Shown piece by piece: positions 31,219-31,544 of a stretch of DNA of 64,000 nt. The DNA comes from Escherichia coli. GTDB taxonomy: Bacteria; Pseudomonadota; Gammaproteobacteria; Enterobacterales; Enterobacteriaceae. The translations under genes were made by a program, and so were the position numbers. Each line of letters opens with the position of its first letter. Within the stretch, counting starts at the first letter, position 1. The stretch is from assembly GCF_003018235.1 (NCBI RefSeq), contig NZ_CP027437.1; one strand, given 5' to 3'. Under the pieces are notes generated by a model. It saw nothing but the letters and a program-made list of their open reading frames with translations, had not been told where the DNA came from and searched no databases.

Positions 31219-31513
31219 AGATAAGTCACTTCCTTCCAGGTCATTATTTTAACTGGTTTTTATAACCAGTCTCATTTTATTAAGAAGGGTAATAACTTGT
31301 GCATCTCTTTTGTCGATCTTTGATATGGGCAAAGAAATGCAGCTAAAAAGCTTATACGTTATTTATTTAGAATACACTACGACTTTTAGATTACCATCAT
31401 ACACATTAAGAATAATCCACGGTAATAAGTGATTAGCATCACAGATTTATCGCGTATATATCATTTTTTTGTGACTTATTTATTAAAGGAATAAGAAAGG
31501 TAATTTGAATTAA

Positions 31514-31544
31514 AGACAAAGGCGCAGTACAGGCTGTACTGCGC
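31514..31544 (-). terminator. Rho-independent terminator downstream of ybaT
   Basis: GC-rich hairpin gcgcagtacaggctgtactgcgc directly after the ybaT stop, followed by a T-rich tract on the minus strand. Confidence 0.55.

What the first reader, a model, noticed from the sequence alone, without database searches (positions are those of the whole stretch)
31219..31520. AT-rich control region upstream of the T1SS/adhesin operon
The roughly 300-bp region between ybaT and the TolC-like gene is very AT-rich with multiple A/T tracts, as is the 1479-1844 spacer upstream of the TAA-like gene. Both look like horizontally acquired, probably H-NS-silenced promoters; they would be the place to look for island-specific regulation.
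Basis: inference. Interest (0 to 1): 0.35.

Follow-up and report, generated by a model that had tools for sequence, protein, structure and literature searches.

The report
Known promoter region of OI-28 adhesin operon
The AT-rich gap between ybaT and the TolC-like gene is real, but it is the promoter and regulatory region of the E. coli O-island 28 secretion/adhesin operon, which was already mapped and published, so it is an ordinary, known feature and H-NS silencing of it remains untested.

Summary
Observation confirmed. Window 31219-31520 is 29.1% G+C, the lowest 302-bp stretch of the 64-kb window (mean 55%). The spacer at 1479-1844 (31.7%) is the second lowest.

The window is E. coli chromosome. 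The region lies between the ybaT terminator and the first gene of O-island 28, which runs tolC28-siiEA/rtx-hlyB28-hlyD28 on the minus strand. It is 98.8% identical to the EDL933 sequence, with no indels.

Published EDL933 work transfers onto it:
- A functional RstA box (TAATTCAAATTACC) sits at window 31512-31499.
- A Cappable-seq start site maps to 31362, with a TATTCT -10 and a 144-nt leader. It is induced in stationary phase.
- Z0608 expression is 55-fold RpoS-dependent.

So it is a control region, but its known regulators are core-genome ones, not island-specific ones. I found no H-NS data. A/T tracts and the H-NS motif are no more frequent than composition predicts, and predicted curvature is unexceptional.

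"Horizontally acquired" needs qualifying. K-12's ybaT-cueR gap is a deletion scar that retains the hlyD28 3' end. Sister Escherichia species carry the operon at the same site.

Small additions of mine: a conserved lac-like CRP site at -73.5, and an unusually conserved leader. Verdict: already known, low interest.

The parts
31512..31544 (-). ybaT intrinsic terminator: 11-bp perfect stem (31544-31522) followed by a CTTTGTCTTT tail (31521-31512)
   Evidence: Terminator scan and inverted repeat I6. The stem is conserved in the sister species. K-12 keeps only the 5' arm.
31499..31512 (-). RstA box TAATTCAAATTACC, at -294..-281 from the ATG and -150..-137 from the mapped start site
   Evidence: Exact match in the window. 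Shown to be needed for RstA binding in EDL933 (PMC12758282). Poorly conserved in the sister species, 48-79%.
31428..31443 (.). Candidate CRP site TGTGA-tgctaa-TCACT, centred at -73.5 from TSS1 and -91.5 from TSS2
   Evidence: The only core match with one mismatch or fewer in 64 kb. All 10 half-site bases are conserved and 4 of 6 spacer bases differ in E. whittamii and E1V33. About 0.005-0.01 such matches are expected per intergenic region of this composition. CRP dependence is inferred, not shown.
31369..31374 (-). -10 hexamer TATTCT of the main promoter; there is no good -35 (ATGGTA at 17-nt spacing; the published ATGATG/TATGAT lie 20-21 nt away)
   Evidence: bTSSfinder and BPROM calls are quoted in PMC10469882 and PMC12758282. 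The -35..+1 block is 93% identical to the sister species.
31362..31362 (-). Main transcription start (TSS1), corresponding to EDL933 579751(+)
   Evidence: Cappable-seq relative read scores: 0, 4.1, 0 and 2.4 in the exponential conditions; 64.7, 53.0, 31.3 and 9.2 in the stationary ones. Coordinates mapped through an alignment with no indels.
31344..31356 (-). Secondary promoter: -10 TATAAG (31356-31351) and TSS2 at 31344, corresponding to EDL933 579769(+)
   Evidence: Detected in one condition only.
31219..31362 (-). 144-nt 5' leader of the TolC-like gene. It holds a 10-bp stem (31340-31331 with 31310-31301) around a non-conserved loop, a hairpin ACTGGTTATAAAAACCAGT (31270-31252) and the Shine-Dalgarno sequence GGAAGGAAG (31237-31229).
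   Evidence: Fold z-score -2.98. Consensus fold has no compensatory changes. The proximal 91 nt are 93.5% identical to the sister species, against 85-88% for the flanking coding DNA. Function unknown.
29863..31218 (-). TolC-family outer-membrane gene (tolC28/Z0608 homologue), first gene of the operon. In this window it is frameshifted by a T7 run (30377-30383) where other genomes have T6.
   Evidence: Pfam OEP family, E = 1e-47, on the intact GF60 copy. Frameshift. The T7 form is absent from all 949 complete genomes that carry the gene.
8083..29754 (-). Giant Ig-like repeat adhesin, annotated in RefSeq as the BapA-related adhesin SiiEA (rtxA28/rtxB28 in EDL933). It is split here by a frameshift near 28779.
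4745..8079 (-). T1SS ABC transporter (5917-8079) and HlyD-family adaptor (4745-5920). The adaptor's stop codon overlaps the cueR start codon (ATGA).
   Evidence: Pfam; ORFs.
1479..1844 (.). Second AT-rich spacer (31.7% G+C). It is a divergent region between a 113-aa ORF (1137-1478, minus strand) and a gene for an adhesin with a YadA-type anchor (1827/1845-3629, plus strand). It lies in a separate insertion between cueR and ybbJ.
   Evidence: In EDL933 a start site is recorded only for the small-ORF side (607294+) and none for the adhesin in 8 conditions.

Best explanation
The region is the promoter and regulatory region, plus the 5' leader, of the O-island 28 type I secretion/adhesin operon (tolC28-siiEA-hlyB28-hlyD28, minus strand). 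It starts directly after the ybaT terminator.

Shown in EDL933, whose sequence is 98.8% identical:
- Transcription starts mainly at window 31362, from a weak promoter with a TATTCT -10 and no proper -35.
- That start is nearly silent in exponential phase and induced more than 10-fold in stationary phase.
- Z0608 expression is 55-fold RpoS-dependent.
- The response regulator RstA activates the region. It binds the box at 31512-31499, and this makes the operon responsive to calcium.

Inferred by me:
- The RstA box lies 137-150 bp upstream of the start site, too far for ordinary contact with RNA polymerase. RstA may therefore act by remodelling or counter-silencing this AT-rich DNA.
- A conserved lac-type CRP site at -73.5 probably adds class-I catabolite activation.
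- The 144-nt leader, whose proximal 91 nt are more conserved than the neighbouring genes, probably carries a further control element that has not been identified.
- The extreme AT content is what one expects of a long, multi-input enterobacterial promoter region. It makes H-NS binding plausible but does not demonstrate it.
For: Identity and position:
- E. coli chromosome; gene order ybaT, gap, TolC-family gene, SiiEA adhesin.
- The intergenic region is 97.6-100% conserved in all 958 genomes that carry it.
- It aligns to EDL933 without indels.

Published function:
- tolC28 regulatory-region lacZ fusion, RstA ChIP-qPCR and EMSA, with binding lost when the box TAATTCAAATTACC at -294..-280 is removed (PMC12758282). 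The box is exact in the window.
- Cappable-seq start sites 579751 and 579769, with stationary-phase induction (PMC10469882).
- Z0608 is 55-fold and Z0609 20-fold RpoS-dependent (PMC2907692).

Comparison with E. whittamii and Escherichia sp. E1V33, which are about 12% diverged in ybaT:
- core promoter 93% identical
- proximal leader 93.5%
- CRP half-sites 10 of 10 conserved with a variable spacer
- a 20-nt loop only 35-40% identical

Other genera: a long AT-rich upstream region (27-40% G+C, 216-930 bp) precedes homologous TolC-adhesin operons in Enterobacter, Lelliottia, Budvicia, Rosenbergiella and others, though without sequence homology.
Against: - All functional data come from EDL933, not from this strain.
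- In this window both tolC28 and the adhesin gene read as frameshifted. The promoter may therefore drive a decaying operon, or these may be homopolymer sequencing errors.
- The published RstA box has at least 5 mismatches to the canonical RstA consensus TACATNTNGTTACA and is poorly conserved in the sister species.
- The CRP site is 1 bp off the textbook class-I positions, and no crp data exist.
- The leader fold shows no compensatory changes. Predicted Shine-Dalgarno sequestration is not significantly greater than with a shuffled upstream leader (p about 0.1) and does not respond to temperature.
Confidence: 0.85

Rival explanations
1. One reading: a xenogeneic promoter whose main control is silencing by H-NS. 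H-NS coats the 70% AT stretch and blocks initiation, and activators such as RstA work only by displacing it. This is compatible with the best explanation; the open question is whether H-NS is the dominant layer.
For: - It is the lowest-G+C stretch of the window (29%), with about 3 times the window density of TpA steps.
- Near-silence in exponential phase and RpoS-dependent stationary-phase expression are typical of promoters antagonised by H-NS (general knowledge).
- The activator site lies at -137..-150, a position more typical of a counter-silencer than of a class-I activator (inference).
- The adhesin side of the second spacer has no start site in 8 laboratory conditions in EDL933.
Against: - I could find no H-NS ChIP or hns-mutant data for any island-bearing strain.
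- The H-NS motif match is only 8 of 10, and such matches are common across the window: 58 found against 40 expected.
- A-tracts are not enriched beyond composition.
- Predicted curvature is unexceptional, and the centre of the region is predicted straight.
- The island body is 59-60% G+C, so an H-NS filament could not spread into it.
- Opposite-strand start sites inside the region are detected in EDL933, so the DNA is not fully silenced.
Confidence: 0.4
2. A passive junction: AT-rich filler left where an island was inserted, with no regulatory role. On this reading the operon is transcribed by read-through from glsA-ybaT.
For: The region sits exactly at the boundary of DNA that K-12 lacks. ybaT and the operon are on the same strand.
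Against: - A strong terminator (11-bp perfect stem plus T-tail) separates ybaT from the region.
- A capped 5' end maps inside the region.
- The fragment drives lacZ and binds RstA.
- Two blocks are more conserved across species than the flanking genes.
- There are no insertion-type direct repeats.
Confidence: 0.03
3. The region hides an unannotated small gene (an sRNA or a small protein), and that gene explains the conservation of the proximal block.
For: - Opposite-strand start sites in EDL933 at 579708(-) and 579617(-), which map to window 31405(+) and 31496(+).
- The leader folds better than shuffled sequences, z = -2.98.
- The proximal block is 93.5% conserved.
Against: - No Rfam family matches: best E-value 1.9, all far below the gathering scores.
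- The small ORFs are 21-40 aa in AT-rich DNA and nothing supports them.
- The opposite-strand start sites were seen in few conditions and lie outside the conserved block.
- No RefSeq annotation places any feature here in 958 genomes.
Confidence: 0.07

Closest known systems
PtolC28, the regulatory region of O-island 28 in EHEC O157:H7 EDL933 (Niu et al., Gut Microbes 2025, PMC12758282)
   Same: - Same locus: ybaT, gap, Z0608 homologue.
- 98.8% identical over the 337-bp gap, with no indels.
- Identical RstA box at the same distance from the ATG.
- Identical -10 hexamer and start-site base.
   Different: - 4 substitutions in the gap, none in the box, the -10 or the CRP-like site.
- In this window the downstream tolC28 and adhesin genes read as frameshifted.
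- The paper does not mention the Cappable-seq start site, the CRP-like site, the conservation of the leader or the K-12 deletion scar.
RstA-activated promoters of E. coli K-12 (asr, csgD) with the RstA box TACATNTNGTTACA (consensus recalled from Ogasawara et al. 2007)
   Same: Direct binding by RstA in vitro and in vivo is reported for the EDL933 sequence.
   Different: - The box used here has at least 5 mismatches to that consensus.
- It lies 137-150 bp upstream of the mapped start site.
- It is not well conserved in sister Escherichia species.
H-NS-silenced, counter-silenced virulence promoters (for example LEE1/ler in EHEC, or SPI-4 siiA-F and SPI-2 ssrAB in Salmonella; general knowledge)
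   Same: An AT-rich, long upstream region in front of a giant-adhesin/T1SS operon, with a far-upstream activator and low expression in exponential phase.
   Different: - No H-NS data exist for this region.
- The island body is GC-rich, not AT-rich.
- No island-encoded regulator lies beside the operon.
- The locus appears ancestral to Escherichia rather than recently acquired.
Class-I CRP-dependent promoters (lac P1 site TGTGAgttagcTCACT at -61.5; general knowledge)
   Same: Identical half-sites TGTGA/TCACT with a 6-bp spacer; the site lies upstream of a weak -35.
   Different: It is centred at -73.5 (or -91.5 for TSS2) rather than -61.5/-72.5/-92.5. CRP dependence has not been tested.

Membership tests
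OI-28 tolC28 regulatory region (RstA-activated) | Lies between ybaT and the Z0608-type TolC gene and is homologous to the EDL933 sequence | tested here: met
   98.8% identity, no indels; synteny.
OI-28 tolC28 regulatory region (RstA-activated) | Functional RstA box TAATTCAAATTACC at -294..-280 | tested here: met
   Exact match at 31512-31499.
OI-28 tolC28 regulatory region (RstA-activated) | RstA binding and RstA/Ca2+-dependent activity | not testable with these tools
   Published for EDL933 only (PMC12758282).
Canonical RstA regulon promoter | Match to the RstA consensus TACATNTNGTTACA | tested here: not met
   The published box is not among the matches with 4 or fewer mismatches. The only such matches in the gap lie elsewhere and have 4 mismatches.
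Bacterial promoter with mapped start site | A -10 hexamer 7 nt upstream of an experimentally capped 5' end | tested here: met
   TATTCT at 31374-31369; start site at 31362, mapped from EDL933 579751.
Bacterial promoter with mapped start site | A -35 hexamer at 16-18 nt spacing | tested here: not met
   The best hexamer at 17 nt is ATGGTA (3 of 6). The published ATGATG/TATGAT lie 20-21 nt away. This is consistent with a promoter that depends on an activator or on sigma-S.
H-NS-silenced xenogeneic promoter | AT content well above the genome average over more than 100 bp | tested here: met
   70.9% AT, the extreme of the window.
H-NS-silenced xenogeneic promoter | High-affinity H-NS nucleation motif (TCGATAAATT) | tested here: inconclusive
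   One 8-of-10 match at 31453-31444. Such matches number 58 in the window, against 40 expected.
H-NS-silenced xenogeneic promoter | Intrinsic curvature or phased A-tracts | tested here: not met
   The wedge model ranks the region about 273rd of 6389 windows, with a straight centre (parameters recalled from memory). A-tract count equals the composition expectation.
H-NS-silenced xenogeneic promoter | H-NS occupancy and derepression in an hns mutant | not testable with these tools
   No data found in the paper library.
H-NS-silenced xenogeneic promoter | DNA recently acquired by horizontal transfer | tested here: inconclusive
   For: the operon sits in other contexts in other genera, and the island is 59-60% G+C against 52-53% for the flanks. 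Against: the same site is occupied in E. whittamii and E1V33, K-12's absence is a deletion scar, and there are no direct repeats.
Class-I CRP-activated promoter | TGTGA-N6-TCACA core | tested here: met
   9 of 10, unique in the 64 kb. Half-sites are conserved and the spacer varies in sister species.
Class-I CRP-activated promoter | Site centred near -61.5, -72.5, -82.5 or -92.5 | tested here: inconclusive
   -73.5 from TSS1 and -91.5 from TSS2, 1 bp off in each case.
Class-I CRP-activated promoter | cAMP-CRP dependence of transcription | not testable with these tools
   No data found.
Known cis-regulatory RNA (Rfam) | Match to an Rfam covariance model | tested here: not met
   Best E-value 1.9, far below the gathering scores.

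The most novel reading that the evidence does not exclude
Two further control layers, neither yet described, may sit on top of the published RstA control.

(a) A class-I CRP site may tie adhesin and T1SS expression to carbon status. RstA, acting from -143, would then work as a counter-silencer of H-NS rather than as a direct activator.

(b) The 144-nt leader may be a new cis-acting post-transcriptional element. Its proximal 91 nt are more conserved across Escherichia species than the flanking genes, and it contains a 10-bp stem with invariant arms around a freely diverging loop.

A side point: the K-12 lineage lost this whole locus in a single deletion. That deletion also removed the ybaT terminator and the EDL933-type cueR promoter, which would have rewired cueR transcription.
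Probability: 0.3. Interest if true: 0.35.

Novelty: already known. Interest (0 to 1): 0.15.

Why it matters
OI-28 contributes to early adherence and gut colonisation by EHEC O157:H7 and O145:H28 (PMC12758282), so its promoter is where host signals enter. That part is already published.

What this check adds is bookkeeping plus a few leads:
- It links the published RstA box to an independently mapped start site 137-150 bp downstream. That distance questions simple direct activation.
- It identifies a candidate CRP input and an unusually conserved leader.
- It shows that the "island" is an ancestral Escherichia locus that K-12-like strains lost by one deletion, rather than a recent acquisition.

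None of this changes how such promoters are understood. H-NS involvement remains an open, easily testable question.

Tried and rejected
1. Rfam scan of 30900-31900 at E-values up to 10: only three chance-level matches.
2. H-NS motif scan: not discriminating.
3. Wedge-model curvature, with parameters recalled from memory so only relative ranks are meaningful: the region is not among the most curved. The window maximum is the glsA-copA gap.
4. A-tract and TpA enrichment beyond composition: absent in the main region.
5. A shared motif between the two AT-rich spacers, which would suggest co-regulation: none beyond chance.
6. Island-boundary direct repeats: none convincing.
7. Small ORFs in the gap: 21-40 aa, nothing supports them.
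8. Homology of the gap outside Escherichia (nhmmer and blastn against 25 loci): none. A CRP site upstream of the homologous operons in other genera: none.
9. Shine-Dalgarno sequestration or an RNA thermometer in the leader: the Shine-Dalgarno sequence is about 70% paired, but this is not significant against a shuffled upstream leader (p about 0.1), and it does not open as temperature rises. The consensus fold has no compensatory pairs.
10. Literature search for H-NS data on this locus. This covered OI-28 and Z0608-Z0635 terms, EHEC H-NS/ChIP papers, the Sakai Pch/H-NS paper, the SE11/SE15/K-12 H-NS ChIP paper (none of whose strains is expected to carry the island, not checked here) and EC042 locus tags. 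Nothing usable was found.

Full report
**What is there**

The window is E. coli chromosome. On the minus strand the order is copA(+), glsA, ybaT (31556-32848), a 337-bp gap (31219-31555), and a TolC-family gene (29863-31218). Then come a roughly 21.7-kb Ig-like repeat adhesin gene (8083-29754), which RefSeq annotates as the 'BapA-related adhesin SiiEA', a T1SS ABC transporter (5917-8079), a HlyD-family adaptor (4745-5920) and cueR (4341-4748). A second, separate insertion lies between cueR and ybbJ (1033-4340). It carries a gene for an adhesin with a YadA-type anchor, and the other AT-rich spacer sits in front of that gene.

**The observation**

- 31219-31520 is 29.1% G+C against a window mean of 55.3%. 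It is the lowest 302-bp stretch of the whole window.
- 1479-1844 (31.7%) is the only other stretch below 36%.
- Both are lower than the 13 other intergenic gaps I measured, which range from 36.5 to 57%.
- A/T tracts (14 in 302 bp) and TpA steps (36) are in the top 1% and top 0.15% of the window. Both are what shuffles of the same composition give.

The AT-richness is therefore real and extreme. The 'multiple A/T tracts' carry no extra information for the main region.

**It is a known locus**

The operon is O-island 28 of EHEC O157:H7 (Z0608, Z0609/Z0615, Z0634, Z0635). 958 of 5426 complete E. coli genomes carry the junction. The gap is 97.6-100% identical among them, and none of them annotates a feature in it. 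The window differs from EDL933 at 4 bases of the gap, with no indels.

Niu et al. (Gut Microbes, December 2025, PMC12758282) reported the following:
- OI-28 is needed for early adherence and colonisation.
- A tolC28 regulatory-region lacZ fusion depends on RstA.
- RstA binds the region in ChIP-qPCR and in EMSA.
- Binding is lost when the box TAATTCAAATTACC at -294..-280 is removed.
- Expression responds to Ca2+ through RstA.

That box is present unchanged at window 31512-31499, immediately after the T-tail of the ybaT terminator (31544-31512).

**Where transcription starts**

The EDL933 Cappable-seq data set (PMC10469882) records a main start site for this gene at 579751(+). Its relative read scores are 0, 4.1, 0 and 2.4 in four exponential-phase conditions, and 64.7, 53.0, 31.3 and 9.2 in the four stationary-phase ones. 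A minor start lies at 579769(+).

Through the indel-free alignment these map to window 31362 and 31344 on the minus strand. Each has a -10 hexamer at the right distance: TATTCT at 31374-31369 and TATAAG at 31356-31351. No acceptable -35 exists, because the published ATGATG/TATGAT lie 20-21 nt from the -10. This is the -10 that the 2025 paper predicted with BPROM.

An EDL933 microarray study found Z0608 55-fold and Z0609 20-fold RpoS-dependent (PMC2907692). That agrees with the stationary-phase induction of the start site.

Two consequences follow:
- The gene has a 144-nt leader.
- The RstA box lies at -150..-137. That is far for direct contact with RNA polymerase, which is my inference.

**Comparison with sister species**

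A genome-collection scan with the TolC protein found the operon at the same ybaT site in Escherichia whittamii and Escherichia sp. E1V33. It is in other contexts in Pseudocitrobacter, Enterobacter, Lelliottia, Trabulsiella, Budvicia and Rosenbergiella. In all of these a long AT-rich gap (216-930 bp, 27-40% G+C) precedes the TolC gene. The sequence is alignable only within Escherichia.

Against the two sister species, identities are as follows:

| Segment | Identity |
|---|---|
| ybaT 3' end | 88% |
| tolC28 5' end | 85-86% |
| -35..+1 block | 93% |
| Proximal 91 nt of the leader | 93.5% |
| 20-nt stretch 31329-31310 | 35-40% |
| RstA box | 48-79% |

A 16-bp site, TGTGAtgctaaTCACT (31443-31428), keeps all ten half-site bases while four of its six spacer bases change. 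It has the same half-sites as the lac CRP site. It is the only core match with one mismatch or fewer in the 64 kb. About 0.005-0.01 such matches are expected in a gap of this composition. It is centred at -73.5 from the main start site and -91.5 from the minor one. I take it as a probable class-I CRP site. This is inference and has not been tested.

**The leader**

It folds better than shuffled sequences, with z = -2.98. The consensus fold has three features:
- a 10-bp stem with invariant arms around the unconserved 20-nt loop;
- a hairpin at 31270-31252, in which the sister-species changes keep G-U pairs;
- a helix that pairs the Shine-Dalgarno sequence with an upstream CCCUUCUU.

No pair shows compensatory change. 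Predicted occlusion of the Shine-Dalgarno sequence is not significantly greater than with a shuffled upstream leader (p about 0.1), and it does not relax with temperature. No Rfam family matches. Why the leader is so conserved stays unexplained. A second promoter, TGCACA-N18-TAAAAT (31303-31274), unused in the eight Cappable-seq conditions, is an alternative.

**H-NS**

I found no occupancy or mutant data for any island-bearing strain. The computational results are as follows:
- The AT content fits H-NS binding.
- The best H-NS-motif match is 8 of 10, and such matches are common across the window.
- A-tracts are not enriched beyond composition.
- A wedge-model curvature profile puts the region about 273rd of 6389 windows, with a straight centre. 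The model parameters were recalled from memory, so only ranks are meaningful.

H-NS binding is plausible. The far-upstream activator and the exponential-phase silence would suit counter-silencing. But it is not shown, and the 59-60% G+C island body would not support spreading. For the second spacer, EDL933 shows a start site only for the small divergent ORF (607294+) and none for the adhesin gene in eight conditions. That is compatible with silencing but is no more than that.

**'Horizontally acquired'**

K-12's 124-bp ybaT-cueR gap consists of three parts: the 5' arm of the ybaT terminator, 6 unmatched bases, and the last roughly 93 nt of the HlyD-family gene, now carrying a 1-nt deletion. 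It runs straight into the cueR ATG. That junction is shared by 4459 of 5426 genomes, including phylogroup B2 strains. The other 958 carry the operon.

With the operon at the same site in two sister species and no flanking repeats, absence in K-12-like strains looks like one ancestral deletion, not the naive state. Any horizontal acquisition predates E. coli.

**Verdict**

This is the operon's control region, but it is already characterised experimentally and its known regulators are core-genome ones.
- H-NS silencing is untested and gains no computational support beyond AT content.
- The acquisition story needs correcting.

Novelty: already known. Interest: low.

Noticed in passing
window 4745-4843 and 31522-31544; K-12 locus L002 5869-5996: K-12's ybaT-cueR gap is a deletion scar. 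It keeps the 5' arm of the ybaT terminator and the last ~93 nt of the HlyD-family gene, which now carries a 1-nt deletion. The same junction is found in 4459 of 5426 complete genomes, so the 'O-island' is an ancestral locus lost once. The deletion also destroys the ybaT terminator in K-12.
   Followed up: yes
window 4745-4748 and ~4908 (minus strand): The cueR start codon overlaps the stop codon of the HlyD-family gene (ATGA). The EDL933 Cappable-seq start site for cueR (604687) lies 160 nt upstream of the ATG, inside that gene, in DNA that K-12 lacks. K-12 must therefore transcribe cueR differently, possibly by read-through from ybaT.
   Followed up: partly
window 30377-30383 and ~28779: The TolC-like gene has a T7 run where GF60 has T6, and none of the 949 complete genomes that carry the gene matches this 101-bp stretch exactly. 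This gives a frameshift at about codon 280. The adhesin gene also has a 1-nt deletion near 28779 that splits it (8083-28761 and 28728-29753). These are either real pseudogenes or homopolymer sequencing errors.
   Followed up: partly
window 31499-31512: The published RstA box has at least 5 mismatches to the canonical RstA consensus TACATNTNGTTACA. It lies 137-150 bp upstream of the mapped start site and is only 48-79% conserved in E. whittamii and E1V33. The core promoter and the leader are 93% conserved.
   Followed up: partly
window 31405 and 31496 (plus strand): EDL933 Cappable-seq lists opposite-strand start sites inside the gap at 579708(-) (orphan) and 579617(-) (antisense, downstream of ybaT). 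They were seen in few conditions.
   Followed up: no
L005 2248-2945 (E. coli ECNB21-M121); equivalent to window ~31259/31260: In this strain an IS1A element is inserted in the leader, about 41 nt upstream of the TolC-like gene's ATG and inside the 31270-31252 hairpin.
   Followed up: no
L039 (E. coli 042, NC_017626.1 577779-601650): The enteroaggregative reference strain 042 carries the TolC-like gene and a frameshifted siiEA at this locus, although PMC12758282 reports OI-28 in 0 of 10 EAEC genomes. The adhesin is annotated as disrupted in the three genomes inspected (EDL933 and O157:H7 Rafaela_II, and 042).
   Followed up: no
window 1016-1087: A ~70-bp element just downstream of ybbJ matches a median of 5 places per E. 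coli genome. It is probably a REP/BIME-type repeat.
   Followed up: no
window 1137-1478 (minus strand) and 1033-4340: A second insertion between cueR and ybbJ holds a 113-aa ORF with no Pfam family, a 600-aa adhesin with a YadA-type anchor and internal ~170-aa repeats, a 140-aa lipoprotein and a 67-aa ORF. Only 232 genomes hold 80% or more of it. The EDL933 version of the adhesin is much shorter (338 aa).
   Followed up: partly
window 33860-34090: By the wedge model, the most strongly curved DNA in the window is the glsA-copA divergent gap, not either of the AT-rich spacers.
   Followed up: no
L012 4001-4660 (E. whittamii): The E. whittamii TolC homologue is only ~70% identical in protein, and its ORF is cut at 219 aa. 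The adjacent adhesin N-terminus is 91% identical. This suggests decay or recombination in that gene.
   Followed up: no
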